A stretch of DNA of 64,000 nucleotides from NCBI GenBank assembly GCA_964244615.1, contig CAXTJP010000001.1, forward strand, positions 27,488 to 91,487, read 5' to 3'. The stretch is from an uncultured Acetobacteraceae bacterium. Its GTDB lineage: Bacteria > Pseudomonadota > Alphaproteobacteria > Acetobacterales > Acetobacteraceae. The notes beneath the pieces were generated by a model that saw only the letters and a program-made list of their open reading frames with translations, was not told the origin of the DNA and searched no databases. Both the position numbers and the translations under genes were made by a program. Shown here piece by piece: positions 2,363-63,167 of this stretch (position 1 is its first letter; each line of letters begins with the position of its first letter).

Positions 2363-3840
2363 CCGGGGGCACCCAACGCACCGGCTGGCGCGCGTGTCCA
2401 AGACACCGGCCCTGGTCGCGCCAAGGCCGTGTTGCGGATGTCGATGGCCAAGACGTAGCCGAAGCATATCCACATCACGACGGCCGGGAACTGCAGCACG
2501 TTGATGGACGGAAATGTCGCCAGGGGACACAGGGCAGCAGCAGCCATCATGCAGCCGATCGGAGACTGCCACCGCTTGGCCAGTTGAAGCACCCGCATCT
2601 GCAGCAGCAACAAACCGACGATGTAGACGGTGCCGACGAGCCAGCCCAGTGCGATGTAGACGGAGAGAGGGCCGAAATCGATATTGATGTTGTATGAACT
2701 GGTTGACTCGGCCGCCAACCCGCGGCCCTGGCCGCCTATGCCCATGCCGAACGGATGCTGGTCCATGATGATGGGCGTCTGACCTATGATCTCCGCGCGC
2801 ACCTGCGCGCTGCCGTCGTTGGACAAGTGGCCGAACGATGAGAAACGCGTGCCAAGTTGGTCGAGGACGTTCGAGTCGAGCACGACTAGTCCGACGAGGA
2901 TCGCCACGACGGCGAAACCCGCCATTGTGGCCAGGCGCCCGACGCCGCCGCGGCCCAGCAACGCCCCGACCAGAAGTGCCAGCACCGTCGAACCGTAGAC
3001 GGAGCGCACCTGTGCGATGGCCAGAGCGGTCAGCAGCACCGGCGCCAGCAGCAACAGCAGCGTATTGCGAAAGTAGGACAGGAAGACCAGGCAGGTGCCC
3101 AGCCACACCGCCAGGAATTGCGGGCTGTTGGTCGGGCCGAACACGCGCGAGCCTTCCGGCAGCGGGTTTCCGACCGCGCCCATGCCGGACCCGACCATCC
3201 AGTCCGCATCCCAGCTGGGCATGACGAAAAACTGATAGAGCGTGTAAGGCACGATGACGAGCAGGCTCAAGGTGAGGAAGACGCGCACATGCGGCTCGGC
3301 TTCCTCGATGCGGTCCGCATGGCCGATGAAGTAGAACAGGTAGAATATCGGCCCGATCCAGTCGGCCGCGGCGAACAGGCCTCCAAGTACCTGGCCGTGC
3401 AGGAAGCTGACCGTCAGCCCGTAGAACGCGCAGCCCAGCAGCAGCAGCCCGTAGCCGCTGCCGCGTCGGGTGAACAGCCCACGCAGGGAGGCGACGTCGA
3501 GCGCGATGAACGCCGTCATGATGTTCGGCGTGCCCAGCACCAGGTCGGACGCGACAAACGGCGTGTGCCACTCCAGCAGACGCCGCACGAAGGCCGTGCC
3601 CAGCCAGAACCACAGGGTGGCGCTGAGCAGCAGCCATGGCGAGCGCCGGCGCGTGACGACGCAGAACGCAACGGCGCCGCCCATGTAGAGGATGCGGCCG
3701 ACGGCGCTGGCCCCTACCAGAGACAGGCCGACCACCAGGGCGACGAGACCGAGATAGGCCAGTGCCAGACGGATTTCGTCACGGATCGCATGGCCGTCCG
3801 GCGCGACCCGTGCGCCGAGGCGCGCGCGCGCGGCGATCAC
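2359..3840 (-). CDS. Multi-pass membrane protein, O-antigen polymerase/ligase (Wzy-like)
   Basis: About 10-12 hydrophobic segments with a large periplasmic loop (..SAQVRAEII...HPFGMGIGG..); located inside the EPS operon; GTG start overlaps the GT4 stop (GTGA). Confidence 0.75.
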   Translation of the reverse strand: MIAARARLGARVAPDGHAIRDEIRLALAYLGLVALVVGLSLVGASAVGRILYMGGAVAFCVVTRRRSPWLLLSATLWFWLGTAFVRRLLEWHTPFVASDLVLGTPNIMTAFIALDVASLRGLFTRRGSGYGLLLLGCAFYGLTVSFLHGQVLGGLFAAADWIGPIFYLFYFIGHADRIEEAEPHVRVFLTLSLLVIVPYTLYQFFVMPSWDADWMVGSGMGAVGNPLPEGSRVFGPTNSPQFLAVWLGTCLVFLSYFRNTLLLLLAPVLLTALAIAQVRSVYGSTVLALLVGALLGRGGVGRLATMAGFAVVAILVGLVVLDSNVLDQLGTRFSSFGHLSNDGSAQVRAEIIGQTPIIMDQHPFGMGIGGQGRGLAAESTSSYNINIDFGPLSVYIALGWLVGTVYIVGLLLLQMRVLQLAKRWQSPIGCMMAAAALCPLATFPSINVLQFPAVVMWICFGYVLAIDIRNTALARPGPVSWTRAPAGALGAPG

Positions 3841-47410: not shown

Positions 47411-48673
47411 ATGGACGGTCCGGCCGGCAGGTTCCTGCATCGCGAAACGCTGACGGTGACCGCCGGCTACGATGCGGCCCAGCATCACGGGTCGATCAAG
47501 CCGCCGCTGTTCGCCAGCTCCACCTTCGCCTATCGCAGCGCGCAGCACGCCAAGGACGTGCACCAGGCCTATTTCCGCGCCACACCGCCAGAGGCAGGCG
47601 CCGAGCCGGGCTACATCTACGCCCGGCTGGACCACCCGAACATGGCGATGCTGCAGGCCAGGCTGGCCGTGCTGGACGGCGCCGAGGATTCGGCGGTGTT
47701 CAACTGCGGCATGGCGGCCATCAACGCCATCGCCCAGGCGTTCCTGCGGCCGGGGGACACGGTGCTGCACACCAGGCCGCTGTACGGCGGCACCGACGGG
47801 CTGCTCTACAGCCACCTCGCGGCGTTCGGCGTGACACCCGTGGGCATCGCCGACGCGCTGGACGCGGACAGCATACGGGCCGCCGCCCACGAGGCCGCGT
47901 CGCGCGGCCGCATCGGGCTGGTGATGGTGGAGACGCCGGCAAACCCCACCAGCGGCATCGCCGACATCGCGCTGATCGCCGAGGTCGCGTCCGAGATCGG
48001 GCGCGCGCAGGCAACCCGGCCGCTGGTGGTGGTGGACAACACGTTCCTGGGGCCGTTCCAGCAGAACCCGCTGGCCCAGGGTGCCGACCTCTGCGTGACG
48101 TCGCTGACGAAATACGCGGGCGGGCACAGCGATCTTCTGGCCGGCGGAATCAGCGGCGCCGCCGCCCCGATCCACACCCTGAAGCAGCTGCGCACCCTGC
48201 TGGGCAGCCAGCTGGACGGTCATTCGTGCTGGATGGTGCTGCGGTCGCTGGAGACGATGCATTTGCGCACCGAGCGGGCCGGGCGCAACGCCCTGGCGGT
48301 GGCGGACTTCCTGCGCGGCCACCCGGCCGTCGCTTCGGTCAACTACGTGGGCTTCCAGGCGCCCGGCAGCCGCGCGCACGCCGTGTTCGCGCGCCAGTGC
48401 GGCGGGGCGGGTTCGACCTTCACCTTCCGCATCCATGGCGGGGAGCCGGCAGCGTTCCGCATGCTCGACCGGCTGCGTGTCATTCAGATGGCGGTCAGCC
48501 TGGGCGGCACCGAAACACTGATCTGCCATTCGGCCACCACCACCCACGCCAACGTGCCCGCCGCGCGACGGCTGGATGTGGGGATCGACGACAGCTCGCT
48601 GCGCATCTCCGTGGGCGTGGAGCACCAGGACGACCTGATCGAGGACCTGCGCCAGGCGCTGGAGGCGGTCTGA
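47411..48673 (+). CDS. PLP-dependent Cys/Met metabolism enzyme (cystathionine gamma-synthase / methionine gamma-lyase family)
   Basis: Motifs KPPLFASSTF, YIYARL, GMAAI, PLYGGT, VVDNT, PLP lysine SLTKYAGGHSD, VSLGGTETL and RISVGVE. Confidence 0.9.
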   Translation: MDGPAGRFLHRETLTVTAGYDAAQHHGSIKPPLFASSTFAYRSAQHAKDVHQAYFRATPPEAGAEPGYIYARLDHPNMAMLQARLAVLDGAEDSAVFNCGMAAINAIAQAFLRPGDTVLHTRPLYGGTDGLLYSHLAAFGVTPVGIADALDADSIRAAAHEAASRGRIGLVMVETPANPTSGIADIALIAEVASEIGRAQATRPLVVVDNTFLGPFQQNPLAQGADLCVTSLTKYAGGHSDLLAGGISGAAAPIHTLKQLRTLLGSQLDGHSCWMVLRSLETMHLRTERAGRNALAVADFLRGHPAVASVNYVGFQAPGSRAHAVFARQCGGAGSTFTFRIHGGEPAAFRMLDRLRVIQMAVSLGGTETLICHSATTTHANVPAARRLDVGIDDSSLRISVGVEHQDDLIEDLRQALEAV

Positions 48674-50223
48674 TGGACGCGACACCAGAATCGCTGCGCG
48701 GCACCGACCCTTGCGCCATCGACGGCAAGTTCGTGGCCCCGGACGAGCATGCCCAGCTGCTCGTGGTGGGGGCGGGCCCGGCCGGGATCGCCGCGGCGCT
48801 GGAGGGGGCGCGGCTCGGCCTGCGCGTGGTGCTGGTGGACGAGAACCCGGTTTCGGCCTCGCTGATGGGGCTGGACGTGCCGCTGTTCTACGGCCAGCGC
48901 ATGACGGCGTCGGTGCAGGAGCCGGCCCGGATGATCGGGCGCCTGGTCGCATCCACACCCGGCCTGGAAGCGGCGTTCGACGCCGGCGTGGACGTGCGGC
49001 TCGGCATCACCGTCTGGGGCGTGTTCGTCAACGGCGCGGCCCTGAGCGCCCTGCCCGTCCGGGTCGCCGGCCTGTCGGACGGAACAAGAAGCTGGATGTG
49101 CGGCTTCGACGCGCTGATCCTGGCCACCGGCGCGCGCGACCTGGTGCTGGGCTTCCCCGGCGTGGACATCCCCGGCGTGATGGGTGCCCGCGCGCTGCAC
49201 AGCCTGCTGGCCCGCTACGACGCGTTTGACGGCCACCGGCTGCTGATCCTCGGCTCCGGCGACCTGGCCGTGCAGACCGCCCTGCTCGCGCTGGATCGCG
49301 GGCTGCAGGTGGCGGCCCTGGTCGAGGTGTTGCCCGAGGCGCAGGCCGCCCCGGCGTGGGCGGCCTCGCTCACGGCACGGGGGGTTGCGATCCTGACAGG
49401 GGCCACGGTCCTGCGGGCGGAAGGCGTGGGACTAGGCCTGGCCGCGGCGGTGGTCCGCCGGGACGGCGTGGAGCAGCGCCTGGCGTGCGATACCGTCTGC
49501 CTGGCCATCGATGCCGTGCCGGCGATCGAGCTGGCGGGGGCCGCGGGCTGCCGCCTCACCTATCGCGGCGACCTGGGCGGCCACGTGCCGCTTTTGTCGG
49601 CGGACGGCGCAACCTCGCTGCCCGGGACGTTCTGCGCCGGCGACTGTGCCGGCCTGGCCGACGATGCCGCGTGCGAAGACCAGGGCCGCGCGTCCGCACG
49701 CGCCGCCGCACGATGGCTGGAAACCCGCGCGCCGACACAGGCGGCGCCCGCATCCTCACTTGGCCAGGACGGCACGGCGTATCGCCTGGCGTGGATGCGC
49801 GCGCTGCTGATCGAGGAGAGCGTGTCGGCGCCGGTCTGCCTGTGCGAGGAGGTGAGCCGTGCCGAGCTGCTCGGCCTCAAGCCGCCGCGCTACCTCGGCT
49901 GCGCGTCCGAACGGATGGCGGCGCGCGACGGCGCCAGCCTGCTGCGCGACGGGCCGCTGCACCCGGACCAGGTCAAGCGGCTGACCCGCGCCGGCATGGG
50001 CGTGTGCCAGGGCAGGCGGTGCCGCGAACAGATCGCGCTGCTGCTGGCACTGACCTCCGGCGCCTCGCCCGCGGACATCCCGCTGGCGAGCTATCGTGCG
50101 CCGGTGCGGCCGTTGCCGTTGGGCGTGCTGGCCGATCACGCCACGATGCGCGATGGATGGGACGTCTGGTTCGGGATAGGGACGCAGTGGGTGCCGTATG
50201 ACGTGATAGAGACAGGCAAGTGA
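48673..50223 (+). CDS. FAD-dependent oxidoreductase with C-terminal BFD-like [2Fe-2S] domain (opine oxidase A / HcnB-like)
   Basis: Motifs VVGAGPAG, LATGARD, FPGVDIPGV, AGD, VCLCEEV and KRLTRAGMGVCQGRRC; TGATG overlap with the upstream gene. Confidence 0.85.
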   Translation: MDATPESLRGTDPCAIDGKFVAPDEHAQLLVVGAGPAGIAAALEGARLGLRVVLVDENPVSASLMGLDVPLFYGQRMTASVQEPARMIGRLVASTPGLEAAFDAGVDVRLGITVWGVFVNGAALSALPVRVAGLSDGTRSWMCGFDALILATGARDLVLGFPGVDIPGVMGARALHSLLARYDAFDGHRLLILGSGDLAVQTALLALDRGLQVAALVEVLPEAQAAPAWAASLTARGVAILTGATVLRAEGVGLGLAAAVVRRDGVEQRLACDTVCLAIDAVPAIELAGAAGCRLTYRGDLGGHVPLLSADGATSLPGTFCAGDCAGLADDAACEDQGRASARAAARWLETRAPTQAAPASSLGQDGTAYRLAWMRALLIEESVSAPVCLCEEVSRAELLGLKPPRYLGCASERMAARDGASLLRDGPLHPDQVKRLTRAGMGVCQGRRCREQIALLLALTSGASPADIPLASYRAPVRPLPLGVLADHATMRDGWDVWFGIGTQWVPYDVIETGK

Positions 50224-50326
50224 AGCACTCCTTTTTTGAAAAGGAGCAGAAGACTCTTGTCCGTTTGGCGCGCGACAGCCGGACAAAAGTTCTTTGGTTC
50301 TTTCTTTCAAGAAAGAACTCTTGCCT
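50214..50326 (+). repeat. AT-rich MITE/REP-like element, copy E (113 bp)
   Basis: Exact terminal inverted repeats AGGCAAG / CTTGCCT; internal TTGTCCG...CGGACAA stem; fills the whole gap between two operon genes. Confidence 0.85.
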
Positions 50327-51457
50327 ATGATCGCCGTCATCGGCGGCGGCGTCACCGGCCTCAGCGCCGCCTGGTGGCTCGCCCGCGCCGGCCACGACGT
50401 GACCGTGTTCGAGCGCTTCATCGTCGGCTGGGAAGCGTCCGGCCGCAACGGCGGCGGCGCCACACACTACCAGAGCCCGCTGTTCCACGAGGAGCAGCGC
50501 CTGTGGCCGATGATGGACGACCTGCTCGGCTACCCGACCGAGTACCAACGCCGGCGTATCGTCATCAACCTGACGCCGGAGGACGAGGCACGCTACCGGG
50601 CCATGGCGACGCTCACGCGCACGATGGGCTACGAATCCGAAGAGCTCGACGTGAAGCAGTTGCGCGAGCTGGCGCCCTTGGCCACCGAGCAGGCGCTCAG
50701 CGCGCAGTATTTTCGTTTCGGCGGCCACGCCAACCCGCAGCGCACCGTGCAAGCCTATGCCTGGGCGCTGCAGGACCATGGCGGCCGCATCCTGCAGCAC
50801 ACCGACGTGCACGGTTTGAAGACCCGAAACGGCCGCGTCACCGAGATCCTTGCCGGTGGCGACAGGCACGGTTGCGATGCCGTCGTCATCGCGGCGGGGC
50901 CGCAGACCGCGTCCCTGCTGGCGCAACTGGGCGTGGACCTGCCGCTGGCCGCGGCACGGGCCGAAATGATCGTGACCGAGGCGCTGCCGCTGATGCCGGT
51001 GGGCGGCGTGGACGGCAACGGGCTTTACGGCCGGCAGACACGACGCGGCAACCTCGCCTATGGCGGCGGCCCGCATGAGTGGCTGGAGGACGACGCCCAC
51101 CTGCAAGCGGCGCGGCCGACCACGCCGCTGCTGCGCAACCTGGCGGCACGGCTGGCGACGCTGTTCCCGCGCGCCGCGCATGCGCGCGTGCTGCGAAGCT
51201 GGGCCGGCATCGTCGAGAACACGCCGGATGGCCGCCCGGTGCTCGACCGGCTGAGCGCGCCCGACAACGTCACGGTGGCCACGATGTCCAGCGTCGGCTT
51301 CGGGCTGTCGCCGGCGACCGGCCGCGCGGTCGCCGACCTGGTGACGACCGGCGCTTGCAGCTTCACCGACATCGCCAAGCTCGGCATCGGACGGTTCGCC
51401 GGGCTGCCGGCGGATTGGCGCGCGGCGCGTGGATGGCAGGCGCTGGTTCCCGCGTGA
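50327..51457 (+). CDS. D-amino-acid oxidase family FAD-binding oxidoreductase (opine oxidase B / HcnC-like)
   Basis: Motifs VIGGGVTG, ASGRNGGG, HANPQ, RSWAG..TPDGRP and GFGLSPATG; ATG 50327 directly follows element E. Confidence 0.88.
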   Translation: MIAVIGGGVTGLSAAWWLARAGHDVTVFERFIVGWEASGRNGGGATHYQSPLFHEEQRLWPMMDDLLGYPTEYQRRRIVINLTPEDEARYRAMATLTRTMGYESEELDVKQLRELAPLATEQALSAQYFRFGGHANPQRTVQAYAWALQDHGGRILQHTDVHGLKTRNGRVTEILAGGDRHGCDAVVIAAGPQTASLLAQLGVDLPLAAARAEMIVTEALPLMPVGGVDGNGLYGRQTRRGNLAYGGGPHEWLEDDAHLQAARPTTPLLRNLAARLATLFPRAAHARVLRSWAGIVENTPDGRPVLDRLSAPDNVTVATMSSVGFGLSPATGRAVADLVTTGACSFTDIAKLGIGRFAGLPADWRAARGWQALVPA

Positions 51458-52710: not shown

Positions 52711-52750
52711 TAAAGATCTTCCGGTTCTTTTCTTCAGAGAACGCCTGTCC
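52711..52750 (+). repeat. Right-arm remnant of the AT-rich element
   Basis: AAAGATCTTCCGGTTCTTTTCTTCAGAGAACGCCTG resembles the right arm GGTTCTTT(C)TTCAAGAAAGAAC..CTTGCCT. Confidence 0.5.
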
Positions 52751-55914: not shown

Positions 55915-56398
55915 CGCGGGCGTCACGATCGGCGAGGCTCCGCCCGGGTCGCTGGCGGGGATCGCCGCGTTCCGGGATCGTGCGCGACTGATGGCGGCGT
56001 TGCGGGCGGCGTTCGGCGTGGACGTGCCGGTCACGTCGCGTTACGTGCAGGCTGGCGGTGTTGCATTGTCCTGCCTGGCGCCCGGACGTTTTCTCGCGAG
56101 CGGCGCGCGTGATGCGGATCTGCCGGCGAGGCTGGCCCGAAGCCTGGCCGGCCTGGCGGCCGTGACGGACCAGAGCGACATGTGGGCGGTCTTCGTCGTG
56201 TCCGGTGCGTCGGTGCGCGAGGTCCTGGCGAAAGTGGTGCCGGTCGATCTCGGTGACGACCAGTTCCGCACAGGCGACGTGGCGTTGACGCGCGCCGGCC
56301 ACCTGGACGTCCGATTATGGCGCATGACGGAACACAGCTACGAGATATCCACAACCCGCTCCTTCGGAACCGACCTGCGCCACCTGCTCCGACGATGA
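55907..56398 (+). CDS. soxG: Sarcosine oxidase gamma subunit
   Basis: Position after soxA; motifs LAPGRF, AVTDQS and REVLAKVVPVDL. Confidence 0.8.
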   Translation: MADAGVTIGEAPPGSLAGIAAFRDRARLMAALRAAFGVDVPVTSRYVQAGGVALSCLAPGRFLASGARDADLPARLARSLAGLAAVTDQSDMWAVFVVSGASVREVLAKVVPVDLGDDQFRTGDVALTRAGHLDVRLWRMTEHSYEISTTRSFGTDLRHLLRR

Positions 56399-56400
56399 CC

Positions 56401-56437
56401 GAAAGTTCCTTGCGCCTTCAGGAAAGATGGCCTGCCT
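56401..56437 (-). repeat. Left-arm remnant of the AT-rich element
   Basis: The minus strand AGGCAGGCCATCTTTCCTGAAGGCGCAAGGAACTTT resembles the left arm of copy G and encodes the last codons and stop of the ABC ATPase. Confidence 0.45.
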
Positions 56438-58376
56438 TTGGCAACTCATGAGCCGGCAAGTGGCACCGGACAGGATGCGCATCCCCCGCCACAAACGCGG
56501 GCGCCACCGTTTCGCAAACGGGCCCGATCTTCCGCGGACAGTTGAGCTGAAAGATGCACCCAGCAGCCACCGTGCCGGGCGCCGGAATGTCGCCCTTCAG
56601 CCGGATCCGCGTGGAGGCCGTGGCGGCCGACACGAGGGCCGCGGTGTAGGGGTGGTGCGGGCCGGCGAGCACGTCCTCGGCCGGGCCGATTTCCAGCATC
56701 TGGCCCAGGTACATCACGGCGATGCGGTCGGCCAGGTAGCGCACCACCGCGAGGTCGTGGGAGATGAACACGTAGCAGACGTGCTCGCGCACCTGCAGCC
56801 CGGCGAGCAGGTTGAGGATGGCGGCCTGGACGGAGACGTCGAGCGCGGAGGTGGGTTCGTCGCAGATCACCACGCGCGGCCGGCCGGCAAAGGCGCGCGC
56901 GATGGCGGCGCGCTGCTTCAGCCCGCCCGAGAGCGCGCGCGGGCGCATGGCGAGGTGGGCCTCGCCCAGGCGCACGCCCTGGGCCAACTCGGACAGCGCG
57001 GCGTTCAGCGTGCGGCCGGACAGGCCTGCGAGGCGGGCCAGGGGGCGCGACAGGATGTGCCGGATGCGGTGCGCGCGGTTCAGCGCGGAATCGGGGTTCT
57101 GGAAGATGATCTGGATGGCGCGGCGGTCCGCGCGGCTGCGGGCCTTCATCGTCGGGCCGAGGGCCGCCCCGTCGAGCGTGAGCGTGCCGCCCGGATCGGG
57201 CGCGGTCAGGCCCAGCAGCATGCGCGCCAGCGTGGTCTTGCCGCTGCCCGACTCGCCGACCAGGCCCAGCGTCTCGCCAGCCGACAGCGTGAGCGTGACG
57301 TCGTCCACGGCGCGCACCGTGCCGCCCGCGCCGGCGTAGGTCTTGGACAGATGGCGCGCCACCAGCACAGGTGCGCCCGCGGTGCGCGGCTGAACCGCGC
57401 CGGCAGCGGCATCCAGCGAGGCCGGAAACGGCGGGGTGAAGTGGCAGCGCGCCATGTGGGCGCCGGTCCAGCGCGCCGGGGGCGGCGTGGCCCCGCAGAT
57501 CGCTTCCCGGCGGTCGCAGCGCGGGGCGAACACGCACGGGTCCAGCTTCGCGCCCGGCGCGGGAAGCCCGCCCGCGATGGTCTGCAGCGCGCCGTCCTGC
57601 TTGCGTCGCCCGGCGCCCGGCAGGCAGGCGACCAGGCGCGCCGTGTAGGGGTGTGCCGGCGCGCGCAGCACGTCCTGCGCGGCGCCCTGCTCCACCAGGG
57701 TGCCGGCGTAGAGCACGCCTATGCGGTCGCACATGCGCGCCACCATCGGCAGGTTGTGGCTGATCAGCAGCACGGCGGTGCCCTGCTCGCGGCGCAGCGC
57801 GTCCACCAGGTCGAGGATCTCGGCCTCCACCGTCGCGTCCAGCCCGGTCGTCGGCTCGTCCAGCACGAGGAGATGCGGGTTCTTGGCCAGTGCCATCGCG
57901 ATCACCACGCGCTGCTGCGTGCCGCCGGAGAGCTGGTGCGGGTAGGCGGACAGCACGCGGTCGGGCGACGGGATCTGCACGCGGGCGAGCATCGCCGCCG
58001 CCCTGGCTCGGACCGACGATACGCCCAGCACCGTAAAGGCCTCGGCCAGCTGGTCGCCGACCGTCAGGGTGGGGTTCAGCGCGCGGCTGGGGTCCTGGTA
58101 GACCATCGAGACGCGAAGCGCCCAAAGCTGGCGCAGCCCGGCGCGCGACAACGCCAGCACATCCTGCCCGTCGATGGTGATGCTGCCGGCGGTGACACGC
58201 CCCGCCGGCGGCAAGGCGCGCAGGGCGGCGAAAGCGGCGGTGGATTTGCCGCAGCCGGATTCGCCCACCAGGCCGAAACACTCGCCGGGCGCCACGTCGA
58301 ACGACACGCGATGCAGGATGGCCGTGTTCCCGTAGGACACCGACAATTCGGCGAGCGACAGCGCGGGCGCGGTCAC
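56418..58376 (-). CDS. Peptide/nickel-type ABC transporter ATP-binding protein with two fused NBDs (DppD/F-like)
   Basis: Two Walker A motifs, GESGCGKS and GESGSGKT; LSGG signatures; DEPTT/DEPTS; HPYT oligopeptide-transporter C-terminal motifs. Confidence 0.92.
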
Positions 58377-60129: not shown

Positions 60130-61664
60130 GACAGCGCCGCGTCCTGCAGGAAAATCTGCGACAGGCCGCTGACGGCGACGCCGGTGACCGTCGGGCCGGT
60201 GGCGCACAGGTAGTCGTAGAAATAGGGGATGATCACCGGCGTCTCGTCCAGCAGCAGGGTCTGTATCCTGCCCGCAAGCACGCGCTGTGCCGCAAGATCG
60301 GTGGCGGCGATGTACTCCGCCACCAGACGGTCGTAATCCGGGTTCCTGAAATGCGCGGCGTTCCAGGCGCCCTGGCTGAGATAGGGTGCGGCGAGGTTCA
60401 CGTTCGGCACGCCGCGATGGCCGTAATCGGTGATGCCCATCGTGCTGTCGAGCCAGTCCGAACGGCCGAACTGCGCGGTGCCGTAATAGGTGCCGGCATC
60501 CTCGATGCGCAAATTGAGCCGTATGCCGATCTGCGCGCAGGCGTTCTGTACCAGCACGGCGAGGTCGGGGATCTCCTGCTGGCGCTCGGTGGTCAGCGTG
60601 GTTTCGAACCCCTCGGCGTGGCCGGCCTCGCGCATCAGCGCGCGGGCGCGGGCCAGGTCGCGGGCGCGCTGCGGCACCGAACGGTCGGTCGATGCGAACA
60701 GCGGGTCGAACGGGGAATCGTTGGCCAGCCTGGCGCGGCCCTGGAACAGGCCGTGCACCAGGCCGGGTCGATCGAGGCTCAGGGCGATGGCCTGGCGCAC
60801 GCGCCGGTCGGCGAGCGGCCCCTCGTCGCAGCGCAGATGGATCTGGCGATGGGTGGAAGCCGGGATGTCGATGATGCGCACGTCCGGGTCGCGCAGCAGG
60901 CCCTGCGCGCCCTGCACGGAGATCTGCACGATGACGTCGACCTGGTCGTCTTCCAGCGCCAGTATCTGCGGCTGCTGGTCGGTGAAGAACGAGAACTCGG
61001 TGCGCGCCGGCAAGGCCGGACGGCCCCAATAAGCCGGGTTGCGAACGAAGCTCGCGCCCTGCTTCGGCGCGTAACGCTCCAGCCGGAACGGTCCGGTGCC
61101 GTTGAAATCGGTCTCGAAATCGCCCGCGTACTTCGCCGGCAGCATGATGGCGTTGTAGTTGTCCGACGACACGTAGAACGGGAAGTTTCCGTTCGGCGCG
61201 TCCAGCTCGAAACGCACCGTGAGGTCGTCGATCCGCCTGGTGCCGCCGGGCGACAGCACGCCGCGCAGGACGGAGAGCGCGTTGGAGCCCTGTTTTGGGT
61301 CGCACAGCCGATCCATCGTGGCCACCACGTCGGCCGCGCCGAAGCCCTGCCCGTCGTGGAATCTCACGCCCGGGCGCAGCTTGAACACCCAGGCCGAGCA
61401 ATCCGCGTTCGGATACCAACCGAGTGCCAGCGAGGGGCGCAGCACCAGGTCGGACCCGTCGTCGATGAGGAACTCGCCGGTCTGGCACAGCATCGCCAGG
61501 CCGCCGATCTCGGAGACCGTCAGCGGCTCGATGGCGCCCGCCGGCACCTGGCTGGCGACGCGGATTGTGGCACCGGGCCGCCCAAGCGACGCCGGCACGG
61601 CGGCGAGCAGGCCGATGCGGGCGGCGTGGCGGATGAACAGCCTACGGCTGAGCCGTCTGACGAT
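60126..61664 (-). CDS. Peptide ABC transporter substrate-binding protein (family 5) with Tat-like signal; apparent ATC start
   Basis: Motifs LRPGVRFHDG, GTGPF, DRRVRQAI and EGFE; the frame extends upstream of GTG 61598 through LSRRLFIRHAARIGLLAAVPA to ATC 61664, which follows AGGAG; an in-frame TAG lies just upstream. Confidence 0.85.
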   Translation of the reverse strand: MVRRLSRRLFIRHAARIGLLAAVPASLGRPGATIRVASQVPAGAIEPLTVSEIGGLAMLCQTGEFLIDDGSDLVLRPSLALGWYPNADCSAWVFKLRPGVRFHDGQGFGAADVVATMDRLCDPKQGSNALSVLRGVLSPGGTRRIDDLTVRFELDAPNGNFPFYVSSDNYNAIMLPAKYAGDFETDFNGTGPFRLERYAPKQGASFVRNPAYWGRPALPARTEFSFFTDQQPQILALEDDQVDVIVQISVQGAQGLLRDPDVRIIDIPASTHRQIHLRCDEGPLADRRVRQAIALSLDRPGLVHGLFQGRARLANDSPFDPLFASTDRSVPQRARDLARARALMREAGHAEGFETTLTTERQQEIPDLAVLVQNACAQIGIRLNLRIEDAGTYYGTAQFGRSDWLDSTMGITDYGHRGVPNVNLAAPYLSQGAWNAAHFRNPDYDRLVAEYIAATDLAAQRVLAGRIQTLLLDETPVIIPYFYDYLCATGPTVTGVAVSGLSQIFLQDAALS

Positions 61665-61690
61665 GGTTGACTCCTGCTAGGCTACGCTTA

Positions 61691-61814
61691 AGGCAAGGCC
61701 TGCTTTTTTGAAAAGCGACAAAAAACTTCGGGTCATGCTGTCGCGGAGGTTTCCACAACGCGCAACCAGGCAACAAAAGTTTTTTGGTTCTTTTCAAAAA
61801 AGAACCGCTTGCCT
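61691..61814 (+). repeat. AT-rich MITE/REP-like element, copy G (124 bp)
   Basis: Exact terminal inverted repeats AGGCAAG / CTTGCCT; core GGTCATGCTGTCGCGGAGGTTTCCAC is shared with copies C and D; contains the TTG start of the MFS gene. Confidence 0.85.
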
Positions 61815-63167
61815 TCTGCAACGCCGAACCTGGTCCTAGCAACCTGCATCCTCGCATCCAGCCTGGCATTCGTGGACGGCTCGGTGGTCAATGTCGGCCT
61901 GCCGGCGATCGGCCGGGACCTGCAGGTCGATTCCGAGGCGCTGCAATGGGTGGTCAACGCCTATTTGCTGCCGCTCAGCGCGCTGCTGCTGCTCGGTGGT
62001 GCTGCCGGCGACCGTTACGGGCGCCGCCGGCTGCTGATCGCCGGGACCATCCTGTTCGCGGCCGCATCGCTCGCCTGCGCCCTCGCCCCTACCCTGGCAG
62101 TTCTGCTGGGTGGACGGGGGCTGCAGGGCGTGGGTGCGGCGATGCTGATGCCGAACAGCCTTGCCATTCTCGGTGCCGCGTTCAGCGGCGAGTCCAAGGG
62201 ACGGGCGATCGGCATCTGGGCCGCCACCGGCGCCGCCATGGGCGCGCTGGGGCCGGTGCTGGGCGGTTTGCTGATCGACACCATCGGCTGGCGTGCGATC
62301 TTCCTGATCAACCTGCCGCTGGCCGCCGGTGCGGTCCTGCTCGCCTGGCGCTTCGTGCCCCTCGATACCGACGGGCGGGATCGTCCGCTCGATGTGTGGG
62401 GCGGGTTGCTGGCCACGTCAGGCCTGGCCACGGCCACCTGGGCGCTGACGGTGGGCTCCGGCCCGGCGGGTTGGACCACGGCCGCCCTGGTGGCCGCCGC
62501 CACCGCCGCGGTGCTGATGGCGGGTTTCGCGGCGCTGGAGCGTCGGCTGGGCGAGGCTGCGACGACCCCGCTCGCCCTGTTCGGGTCCAGAACCTTCGTC
62601 GGCCTGACCGTGCTGACGCTGCTGCTCTACGGCGCGCTGGGCGGCCTGTTCGTGCTGCTGCCGTTCCTGCTGATCCAGGCAGCCGGCTATTCCGGCACCC
62701 AGGCCGGCGCGGCGCTGCTGCCGCTGCCGCTCATCCTGGCGGGCCTGTCGCCGACGATGGGTGCGCTGGCCGGGCGCATCGGCCCGCGCCTGCCCCTGGC
62801 TGTCGGACCGCTGGTCGTCGCGTGCGGCTTCGCCCTGCTGACCCGGATCGGCGAGCGGGCCGGCTACTGGACCGAGGTCTTCCCCGCCTTGCTGGTGATC
62901 GCCGTCGGGCTGAGCGGGGCGGTCGCACCGTTGACCGCGGCGGTGCTGCAGTCGGTGGACGATCGCCATGCCGGCTCGGCGTCCGGGCTGAACAGCGCCG
63001 TTGCCCGCACCGGTGGCCTGGTTGCGACCGCACTGGTCGGCGCCGTGCTGGCGGCGCGTGGTGCGGACCTGCTCGCCGGCTTCCACCTCGCCGCATCGGT
63101 CGGCGCCTGTGCCTGCCTGCTGGCGGGCCTGACCGCTTTCTGCCTCGTCGGCCGCGTCGCACCATGA
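61809..63167 (+). CDS. MFS transporter, DHA2 (drug:H+ antiporter-like) family
   Basis: Motifs LAFVDGSVVNVGLP, GAAGDRYGRRR, GRGLQGVGAA, GPVLGG and WRAIFLINLP. Confidence 0.92.
   Translation: MPSATPNLVLATCILASSLAFVDGSVVNVGLPAIGRDLQVDSEALQWVVNAYLLPLSALLLLGGAAGDRYGRRRLLIAGTILFAAASLACALAPTLAVLLGGRGLQGVGAAMLMPNSLAILGAAFSGESKGRAIGIWAATGAAMGALGPVLGGLLIDTIGWRAIFLINLPLAAGAVLLAWRFVPLDTDGRDRPLDVWGGLLATSGLATATWALTVGSGPAGWTTAALVAAATAAVLMAGFAALERRLGEAATTPLALFGSRTFVGLTVLTLLLYGALGGLFVLLPFLLIQAAGYSGTQAGAALLPLPLILAGLSPTMGALAGRIGPRLPLAVGPLVVACGFALLTRIGERAGYWTEVFPALLVIAVGLSGAVAPLTAAVLQSVDDRHAGSASGLNSAVARTGGLVATALVGAVLAARGADLLAGFHLAASVGACACLLAGLTAFCLVGRVAP

What the first reader, a model, noticed from the sequence alone, without database searches (positions are those of the whole stretch)
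50203..50330. Removing element E exactly restores an ATGA stop/start overlap
Seen: the upstream gene reads ...GAG ACA GGC AAG TGA (ETGK*) using element sequence, and the next ATG begins immediately after CTTGCCT. Deleting 50214-50326 gives GAG ACA TGA with the ATG overlapping the TGA, the same ATGA coupling seen throughout this window. Inference: this is evidence for insertion into a translationally coupled junction without a duplication, and it defines the element boundaries.
Basis: partly seen in the sequence, partly recalled or inferred. Interest (0 to 1): 0.62.

Follow-up and report, generated by a model that had tools for sequence, protein, structure and literature searches.

The report
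Repeat element splitting an ATGA gene overlap

Summary
The sequence facts are correct. The OoxA/HcnB-like gene ends GAG ACA GGC AAG TGA at 50223. A 46% G+C hairpin-rich insert follows. The DAO-family gene starts ATG at 50327. Deleting 50214-50326 gives ACATGA.

Thirteen element-free genomes of the genus (uncultured Acetobacteraceae) and several outgroups end this gene ...GGNMHA*. Eleven of the thirteen have CAC GCA TGA overlapping the next ATG. So an ATGA overlap is ancestral, but at the present TGA (50221-50223), not at ACA.

All ten other element-bearing sequences whose left flank can be read keep NTGA on both sides: stop on the left, start on the right. This argues against "no duplication" at this site. 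G000 itself reads GTGA (50220-50223), element, ATGA (50327-50330).

G000's short tail (WVPYDVIETGK*) is best explained by a lineage-specific 33-nt in-frame deletion inside the tail plus a 3-nt loss in the left inverted repeat. GGC AAG TGA is then probably the gene's own sequence, the element is about 50224-50326, and the 7-bp AGGCAAG/CTTGCCT repeat is partly fortuitous.

The element belongs to a genus-wide family (216 loci in this genome) that sits against gene stop codons.

The parts
48673..50223 (+). Upstream gene: OoxA/HcnB-like FAD/NAD(P) oxidoreductase subunit, 516 aa. Pfam domains Pyr_redox_2, SO_alpha_A3 and a BFD-like 2Fe-2S domain. Its start overlaps the PLP-enzyme gene's stop as TGATG.
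   Evidence: PDB relatives: sarcosine oxidase alpha chain 1VRQ/2GAG, and PH1363 1Y56_A
50188..50223 (+). Truncated C-terminal tail WVPYDVIETGK*. Relatives have 22-26 residues here, ending (G)GNMHA*. The most likely cause is a 33-nt in-frame deletion between GGC AA and G TGA.
50214..50220 (+). AGGCAAG. It is most likely the gene's own codons (Thr third base + GGC AA + G), and it happens to be the perfect complement of 50320-50326.
   Evidence: L129 has ACC GGC AAC at the homologous codons; TGA directly precedes GGAAGCACTCC / GCAAGCACTCC in relatives
50220..50223 (+). Left copy of the NTGA tetranucleotide (GTGA). This is the ancestral stop codon of the upstream gene.
50224..50326 (+). Element E within its comparative boundaries: 103 nt, 46% G+C. 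It is orthologous to the copies at the same junction in G016 and G014. It is a member of a genus-wide dispersed family of about 125 nt with ends AAGGCAAG/CTTGCCTT.
50228..50246 (+). Left sub-terminal hairpin: CTCCTTTT, loop TTG, AAAAGGAG. The variable stem position is C-G here, against G-C or U-A in other copies.
50297..50318 (+). Right sub-terminal hairpin: GTTCTTTCT, loop TTCA, AGAAAGAAC. This is the most conserved module of the family.
50320..50326 (+). Right terminal inverted repeat CTTGCCT (family consensus CTTGCCTT).
50327..50330 (+). Right copy of the NTGA tetranucleotide (ATGA). It holds the start codon of the downstream gene.
50327..51457 (+). Downstream gene: DAO-family FAD oxidoreductase (OoxB/HcnC-like), 376 aa, N-terminus MIAVIGGG. 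Its stop overlaps the soxB start as GTGA.

Best explanation
A non-coding element entered the 4-nt ATGA stop/start overlap between the OoxA/HcnB-like gene and the DAO-family gene. It is AT-rich, bears hairpins and has terminal inverted repeats. It belongs to a high-copy, genus-specific MITE/REP-like family. This happened in an ancestor of G000, G014, G016 and four metagenomic relatives.

After the insertion, the overlap tetranucleotide stands on both sides: (A/G)TGA on the left and (A/G/T)TGA on the right. The upstream gene therefore kept its stop and the downstream gene kept its start. That state is shown. The mechanism behind it is inferred: either a target duplication of at least 4 bp, or element ends that supply TGA...CA.

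Later, in the G000 lineage only, a 33-nt in-frame deletion removed 11 codons of the conserved C-terminal tail. The deletion runs from ...ACN GGC AA[C GAG ... CAC GC]G TGA. Three further bases were lost from the left inverted repeat just after the stop. What remains is ACA GGC AAG TGA AGCACTCC. This is inferred from alignment.

The two genes are now separated by 103 nt carrying three hairpins, so direct termination-reinitiation coupling is lost (inferred).
For: Ancestral overlap. Eleven of 13 element-free genus genomes have CAC GCA TGA with the downstream ATG overlapping it, and so do Acidiphilium and other alphaproteobacterial outgroups. The tail ends ...GG-x-[ML]-H-[ALVT] in about 95% of the 120 nearest protein clusters.

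Orthology and age of the element.
- G000 is sister to (G016, G014) with 100/100 support.
- All three carry the element ending at the same base before ATGATCGCC.
- E's best match outside its own genome is that junction in G016: 83% identity over 104 nt, against 78% or less for other G016 copies.
- Four further metagenome contigs of the same clade carry it or remnants of it (tree).

NTGA on both sides.
- G016/G014: GCG TGA | ... | C ATGATC
- L128: GCA TGA | ... | T TTGATC
- L129: GCA TGA | ... | A ATGATC
- L130: GCT TGA | ... | C GTGATT
- L131: GCG TGA | ... | C ATGATC
- G008/G017: GCA TGA | ... | C ATGAAA
- G010: GCG TGA | ... | T TTGACC
- A second, independent case is the DAO/soxB overlap in G004: GGCATGA | element | GCGATGAGATTC. 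Relatives there have a single gcATGAAGTTC.

Deletion model. G000 is 36 nt shorter than G016 between the Thr codon and AGCACTCC, which equals 33 + 3. GGC AA equals the tail codons GGC AAC of L129. G-TGA equals GCG TGA of the sisters. TGA sits directly before (GGA/GCA)AGCACTCC in G016 and L128.

Family context. There are 216 loci in G000, 70 of them full length. The family is in 24 of 24 genus genomes and in 0 of 16 genomes from other families of the class. At 62% of full-length termini, the stop codon of an incoming long ORF lies close by, mostly within about 10 nt.
Against: - The perfect 7-bp complement AGGCAAG/CTTGCCT equals the family's consensus ends. On this model it has to be partly coincidental: 5 of the 7 bases pre-exist in L129.
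- No target duplication of 4-10 bp is detectable family-wide in 100 full-length copies (z about 0). The duplication at this site may therefore reflect survival of rare events, or element-borne ends, rather than a regular feature of insertion.
- The tree cannot decide between one and three insertions at this junction (AU test p = 0.069).
- G000's junction is known from a single MAG contig. No second assembly of the species was found.
Confidence: 0.62

Rival explanations
1. Fusion to the element's end. The ancestral element began TGA|GGCAAGTGAAGCAC. A 42-nt deletion in G000 removed 13 tail codons together with the original stop. The ORF now reads two codons and a stop (GGC AAG TGA) out of the element's left inverted repeat, although the flank is still not the ancestral junction.
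For: AGGCAAG matches the family's consensus left end and pairs perfectly with CTTGCCT. Other genes in this genome do end inside element arms: there is a cluster of stops 19-21 nt inside the element. G008 and G010 carry GCAAG repeats right after TGA.
Against: It needs the same 5-6-nt loss (TGAAG/GCAAGT) to have occurred independently in the L128 lineage and in the G016/G014 lineage (tree; sequences). It makes the TGA that lies 0-3 nt before AGCACTCC in G000 a coincidence. It also makes the GGC AA match to L129's tail codons a coincidence.
Confidence: 0.2
2. The element inserted precisely, without duplication, into an ACATGA overlap. Positions 50214-50326 are its exact extent, and the pre-insertion protein ended ...DVIET*.
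For: Deleting 50214-50326 gives an in-frame ACA TGA overlapping ATG. No family-wide target duplication was found.
Against: The sister species G016 and G014 carry the orthologous element downstream of a full 22-residue tail, so the insertion came before the truncation. No element-free orthologue ends at ...ET*. The frame match has about a 1-in-3 chance, and a second deletion 'restores' an overlap equally well.
Confidence: 0.04
3. Assembly artefact. The short tail, or the junction as a whole, is a mis-join of a metagenome assembly inside a repeated element.
For: The genome is a MAG of 180 contigs. The element family has 216 loci. No independent assembly of this species was found.
Against: Both flanks are collinear with G016 and G014 over more than 15 kb. 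E's left arm and core have no close paralogue in the genome. The deletion lies in unique coding sequence, keeps the frame, and has a parallel in L128.
Confidence: 0.04
4. The AT-rich stretch is an old intergenic spacer lost by the other lineages, not an insertion.
For: Seven of about 20 genus genomes have an element at this junction. A single origin is not rejected (AU p = 0.069).
Against: The earliest-branching genus member (G013) and outgroups from other families have the bare ATGA overlap. The sequence belongs to a dispersed family of hundreds of copies confined to the genus. A precise loss that recreates ATGA many times over is implausible.
Confidence: 0.02

Closest known systems
Correia elements (Neisseria MITEs, about 100-155 bp)
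   Same: Short and non-coding, with terminal inverted repeats and hundreds of copies. They lie between genes, including inside operons. They are co-transcribed and can form hairpins. Internally deleted short forms exist.
   Different: No sequence relation. Correia elements duplicate a TA target, whereas no regular duplication is detectable here. This family is AT-rich in a 69% G+C genome and sits against stop codons. No promoter-like or terminator-like consensus was found in E.
ERIC/IRU elements of enterobacteria (about 127-bp imperfect palindromes in transcribed intergenic regions)
   Same: Similar length. Located within operons or just 3' of ORFs. Present or absent at orthologous junctions among related species. 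Stable once present.
   Different: Unrelated sequence. Copy number here is far higher: first-look candidates range from about 30 to about 1,800 per genome. This family also has two AT-rich sub-terminal hairpins and a GC-richer core.
REP/BIME elements with RAYT transposases (REPINs)
   Same: High-copy extragenic hairpins at the 3' ends of genes, held at orthologous sites across species. G008 and G017, about 90% identical, share essentially all mapped sites.
   Different: No Y1/RAYT transposase (PF01797) in five genomes, all at least 92% complete. No GTAG/CGTC head. The unit is about 125 nt and has true terminal inverted repeats.
Rickettsia palindromic elements (RPE)
   Same: Small repeats that can become part of reading frames. 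In this genome some ORFs end inside element arms.
   Different: RPEs insert in frame within genes and are translated. Here the element lies between two genes, and the upstream stop is most likely the gene's own.

Membership tests
MITE (non-autonomous derivative of a DDE transposon) | Short non-coding unit with terminal inverted repeats | tested here: met
   Family consensus is about 125-130 nt with AAGGCAAG...CTTGCCTT ends. E's own left repeat is degenerate (TGA|AGCAC), and the apparent AGGCAAG is probably coding sequence.
MITE (non-autonomous derivative of a DDE transposon) | Many dispersed copies | tested here: met
   216 loci (70 full length) in the 3.07-Mb genome. Present in 24 of 24 genus genomes.
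MITE (non-autonomous derivative of a DDE transposon) | Target-site duplication of fixed length | tested here: inconclusive
   Paired versus shuffled flanks of 27 and then 100 full-length copies show no excess for k = 3-10. Yet NTGA stands on both sides at this junction in every readable lineage, and at the G004 DAO/soxB junction.
MITE (non-autonomous derivative of a DDE transposon) | A full-length insertion sequence with the same ends somewhere in the group | not tested
   No search for a transposase flanked by AAGGCAAG ends was made. The genome search closed before it could be tried.
MITE (non-autonomous derivative of a DDE transposon) | Presence/absence polymorphism among close relatives (recent mobility) | tested here: not met
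   About 25 mapped sites between G008 and G017 (about 90% nt identity) are occupied in both. Sites in G000, G016 and G014 are mostly shared too. Lineage-specific occupancy is seen only at deeper splits.
REP/BIME with RAYT (REPIN) | Cognate Y1 (RAYT) transposase gene in the genome | tested here: not met
   PF01797 gave no match in G000, G008, G016, G015 or G012, while 6 of the 14 control genomes matched.
IS200/IS605-derived palindrome-associated elements | Y1 transposase family present; sub-terminal hairpins without inverted-repeat ends | tested here: not met
   No PF01797. The family does have terminal inverted repeats.
Rfam-described RNA families | Match to a curated covariance model | tested here: not met
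   No hit at gathering score in the whole window. No hit at E <= 1 on 50150-50400.
Intrinsic transcription terminator | G+C-rich hairpin followed by a T-run | tested here: not met
   No terminator-like site in 49900-50600 on either strand. The stems are AT-rich.
Translationally coupled NTGA overlap (ancestral state of the junction) | Stop of the upstream gene overlaps the start of the downstream gene by 4 nt in element-free orthologues | tested here: met
   gcATGA in G001, G002, G004, G006, G007, G013, G015, G018, G024, CAXTCL, CBDAQJ and outgroups. G022 has TGATG, and G003 has an altered tail.

The most novel reading that the evidence does not exclude
The family has a real preference for stop codons and NTGA stop/start overlaps, and it inserts in a way that leaves both reading frames intact. 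That would explain three things: up to three separate hits at this one 4-nt junction, a further hit at the next overlap of the same operon in G004, and the crowding of element ends against stop codons genome-wide. A corollary follows. Once the overlap is split, the conserved ...GGNMHA tail erodes: three independent in-frame deletions occurred in the element-bearing clade. This hints that part of the tail's conservation served translational coupling rather than the protein.
Probability: 0.2. Interest if true: 0.6.

Novelty: new member of a known kind. Interest (0 to 1): 0.3.

Why it matters
For this finding the value is mainly corrective. An apparently exact 'excision restores the junction' argument, made from one sequence, is shown by orthologues to be a frame coincidence layered on a real but older event. 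The proposed element boundaries move by 10 nt.

More broadly, the locus is a clean natural example of how a small repeat can split a 4-nt stop/start overlap without destroying either gene, because NTGA ends up on both sides. It also shows what happens afterwards: loss of coupling, then repeated erosion of the upstream gene's C-terminal tail. The family itself appears undescribed. It is abundant, confined to one genus of uncultured Acetobacteraceae, and tied to gene 3' ends.

Tried and rejected
- Rfam, at gathering score and at E-value threshold: nothing.
- Y1/RAYT transposase search: nothing in five genomes.
- Promoter and terminator consensus scan: nothing.
- Family-wide target-duplication tests, by exact k-mers and by best ungapped match with offsets: no signal.
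- Clean filled/empty site pairs, G000 against G016/G014 and G008 against G017: none. The elements are shared at orthologous sites or lie at rearranged sites.
- A second assembly of this species, to confirm the short tail: exact-protein look-up found nothing. The nearest proteins are G014 and G016 at 90-91%. A 20-nt junction pattern in metagenome contigs gave only three unrelated chance hits. Cluster look-up gave unrelated 52-aa fragments.
- My first model, a 42-nt deletion fusing the ORF to the inverted repeat: demoted after contigs L128 and L129 were read.
- A single 36-nt deletion: rejected, because it leaves six consecutive mismatches.
- Literature searches: no description of this repeat family.
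Full report
**1. What is in the sequence**

The window is a 69% G+C stretch of a 3.07-Mb, 180-contig genome.

At the site, an ORF running 48673-50223 (516 aa) reads ...TGG GTG CCG TAT GAC GTG ATA GAG ACA GGC AAG TGA. Pfam places it with Pyr_redox_2, SO_alpha_A3 and a BFD-like 2Fe-2S domain. PDB relatives are the sarcosine oxidase alpha chain and PH1363.

A DAO-family gene (376 aa, MIAVIGGG...) starts at ATG 50327. Between the two genes lies AT-rich DNA at 46% G+C, against 69-73% in the flanks. It folds into three hairpins closed by AGGCAAG/CTTGCCT (z = -3.3).

Deleting 50214-50326 does give GAG ACA TGA with ATG overlapping the stop.

**2. The element is one of a large family**

An iterated nhmmer profile finds 216 non-overlapping loci in this genome. 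Seventy are full length (about 125-130 nt), and together they make up 0.6% of the DNA.

- The consensus has ends AAGGCAAG...CTTGCCTT, two AT-rich sub-terminal hairpins and a GC-richer core (GCTGTCGCGGAG...).
- One stem position of the left hairpin shows G-C in 20 copies and U-A in 14. E has C-G there.
- Short forms arise by deletion between the two arms (pair 1).
- The family is present in all 24 other genomes sampled from the genus. It was not found in 16 genomes from other families of the class. First-look candidate numbers range from about 30 to about 1,800 per genome.
- Record titles identify the genus as uncultured Acetobacteraceae; many records appear to come from lichen-metagenome MAGs.
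- No Rfam family matches. No Y1/RAYT transposase is present in five genomes. E has no promoter-like or terminator-like consensus.
- At 87 of 140 termini of full-length copies, an incoming long ORF with high GC3 stops near the end of the element. Most stop within about 10 nt. A second cluster stops 19-21 nt inside the arm.
- Between two species about 90% identical in DNA, essentially all of the roughly 25 mapped elements occupy orthologous sites. The copies are therefore old and stable.

**3. The orthologous junction**

Orthologues of the downstream gene were taken from same-genus genomes and from the wider genome collection. The junction was then read in each.

*Element-free genomes.* There are thirteen in the genus.
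- Eleven have CAC GCA TGA with the next ATG overlapping it: G001, G002, G004, G006, G007, G013, G015, G018, G024, CAXTCL and CBDAQJ.
- G022 has TGATG.
- G003 has an altered, longer tail.
- Acidiphilium and other alphaproteobacterial outgroups also have NTGA overlaps.

In all of these, the upstream protein continues 22-26 residues past the conserved Trp and ends ...(G)G-N-M-H-A. Among the 120 nearest protein clusters, about 95% keep an ending of the form ...GG-x-[ML]-H-[ALVT].

An ATGA overlap is therefore ancestral, but it lies at the end of a tail that G000 lacks.

*Element-bearing genomes.* These are G000, G014, G016, G008, G017, G010 and G019. In G019 a different gene lies upstream. Four metagenome contigs also carry the element or remnants of it: L128, L129, L130 and L131.

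Wherever the left flank can be read, the full or partly eroded tail ends GC(N) TGA immediately before the element, and the downstream gene starts (A/G/T)TGA immediately or shortly after it. Examples:
- G016: CAC GCG TGA|GGAAGCACTCC...CTTCCC|ATGATCGCC
- L128: GAC GCA TGA|GCAAGCACTCC...CTTCTTT|TGATCTGC
- L129: CAC GCA TGA|AGCAAAAAAC...CTTCCA|ATGATCGCA
- G008: CAC GCA TGA|GCAAGCAAGC...GCTC|ATGAAAGAC

The tetranucleotide that was once shared by stop and start is thus present twice.

The same pattern appears independently at the next overlap of the operon in G004. There the sequence reads GGCATGA | element | GCGATGAGATTC, whereas relatives have a single gcATGAAGTTC.

This contradicts 'without a duplication' for this site. 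However, tests on 27 and on 100 full-length copies show no general target duplication of 3-10 bp. I cannot say whether the doubling is (a) a staggered-cut duplication that has decayed elsewhere, (b) survival of rare events that spared both genes, or (c) the result of element ends that read TGA...CA.

**4. Phylogeny**

- On DAO+soxB DNA, and on DNA with the upstream gene added, G000 is sister to (G016, G014) with 100/100 support.
- On the upstream protein, this trio is sister to (L129, L128). Both pairs are then sister to (P0005 = L130, P0073 = L131).
- All seven members carry the element and share the short downstream N-terminus MI(A/C)(V/I)IGGG. The insertion therefore predates the whole clade.
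- E's best match outside its own genome is the copy at the same junction in G016: 83% over 104 nt, against 78% or less for other G016 copies and 80% for the best G000 paralogue.
- Whether clade B (G008, G017, G019) and G010 descend from the same event is open. The best tree needs three changes, but a single clade is not rejected (AU p = 0.069).

**5. How G000's junction arose**

Tails in the element-bearing clade:
- 22 residues: G016, G014, L130, L131
- 18 residues: L129
- 11 residues: L128, which ends ...GTDA*
- 11 residues: G000, which ends ...ETGK*

L128 and G000 lie in different sub-clades, so their truncations are independent.

G000 is 36 nt shorter than G016 between the Thr codon and AGCACTCC.

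My first model was a 42-nt deletion that fused the ORF to a canonical GGCAAG end. It became the less parsimonious option once L128 and L129 were read, for three reasons:
- TGA sits directly before (GGA/GCA)AGCACTCC in G016 and L128, and G000 has TGA AGCACTCC.
- The base before TGA is G in G000, as in its sisters (GCG TGA).
- GGC AA after the Thr codon equals GGC AAC at the homologous codons of L129.

One 33-nt in-frame deletion, GGC AA[C GAG...CAC GC]G TGA, plus a 3-nt loss after the stop reproduces G000 exactly.

On this reading, GGC AAG TGA is the gene's own sequence and the element is 50224-50326. G000 itself carries GTGA (50220-50223) and ATGA (50327-50330) on the two sides. Deleting 50224-50330 'restores' a GTGA overlap with both frames intact.

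One thing remains unexplained. AGGCAAG is a perfect complement of the right end and equals the family consensus. Five of its seven bases pre-exist in L129's tail. G000's right end, CTTGCCT, is closer to the consensus than those of its relatives, which read CTTCC. Chance, selection for a closing stem, and conversion from another copy are all possible.

**6. Consequences (inferred)**

- The two genes are no longer overlapped. They are separated by 103 nt of hairpins.
- No strong Shine-Dalgarno sequence precedes the ATG at 50327.
- The upstream protein has lost the conserved ...GNMHA end. The archaeal relative PH1363 ends before this tail, so the tail is not part of the core fold.
- Three independent in-frame erosions of the tail occurred within the one clade that carries this old insertion. 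Near-universal conservation elsewhere contrasts with this. The pattern suggests relaxed constraint after uncoupling, but this is only a correlation.

**7. Limits**

- The junction of G000 rests on a single MAG contig of 94 kb.
- The genome search closed. This prevented wider sampling of the genus and a search for an autonomous partner element.
- No second assembly of the species was found.

**8. Verdict**

The junction was indeed an ATGA overlap. However, the element's left boundary, the origin of the last codons, the 'no duplication' claim and the 'restored' junction are all contradicted, or made unlikely, by orthologues.

The element is a new family of a known kind: MITE/ERIC/REP-like intergenic repeats. 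Interest is modest.

Noticed in passing
window 56389-56439: An arm remnant of the element marks a synteny break. Relative G014 has about 27 kb here that is absent from G000 and G016.
   Followed up: partly
window 61690-61815: Collinearity with both G016 and G014 ends about 35 nt before this full-length copy (alignments stop at 61655-61657). Element copies seem to coincide with rearrangement breakpoints.
   Followed up: no
window 52711-52750 (soxB/soxD junction): G000 keeps a short arm remnant here. G016 and G014 have 55-75-nt half elements. G008, G017, G019, G015 and G024 have other forms. CBDAQJ has a bare TGAcATG. The same operon has therefore been hit at several junctions.
   Followed up: partly
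L037 (G004) 3626-3830, DAO/soxB junction: A lineage-specific full-length element splits the gcATGA overlap, with ATGA kept on both sides. The two flanks also resemble each other over about 11 nt: TTTCGGCATGA against TTTCCGCGATGA.
   Followed up: partly
L035 (G017) about 3626-3760: A duplication of about 110 nt at the DAO/soxB junction repeats CCGGCGTGAGCGGCCGGTTCTCCTTCG. It is not related to the element.
   Followed up: no
L033 (G019) about 2270-2500: A different gene lies upstream of the DAO-family gene. It appears to read into the element arm and end ...KGRKQGLLF* at the TGA in the hairpin loop. This suggests rearrangement at the element.
   Followed up: no
L041 (G015) junction: The element-free junction reads gcATGAGCAAGGCCGGTTCC. 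GCAAGGCC equals the family's left-end consensus. The N-terminal MSKA of the downstream protein could be a scar of a lost element, or the likeness could be chance.
   Followed up: no
L131 2750-3320: In this relative the junction has grown to about 570 nt. It holds two tandem copies of a composite unit (another GC-rich repeat plus an element left half) before the right arm and ATGATC.
   Followed up: no
whole genus: First-look candidate counts for the family differ about 60-fold between species of one genus: about 30-50 in G014 and G016, 146 in G000, and about 1,300-1,800 in G001, G018, G019, G017 and G008. In an 80-kb stretch of G008 there is one element per 1.9 kb.
   Followed up: partly
genome-wide, G000: Ends of full-length elements abut stop codons of incoming genes, mostly within about 10 nt. 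A second group of genes terminates 19-21 nt inside the arm, at the TGA of the hairpin loop.
   Followed up: partly
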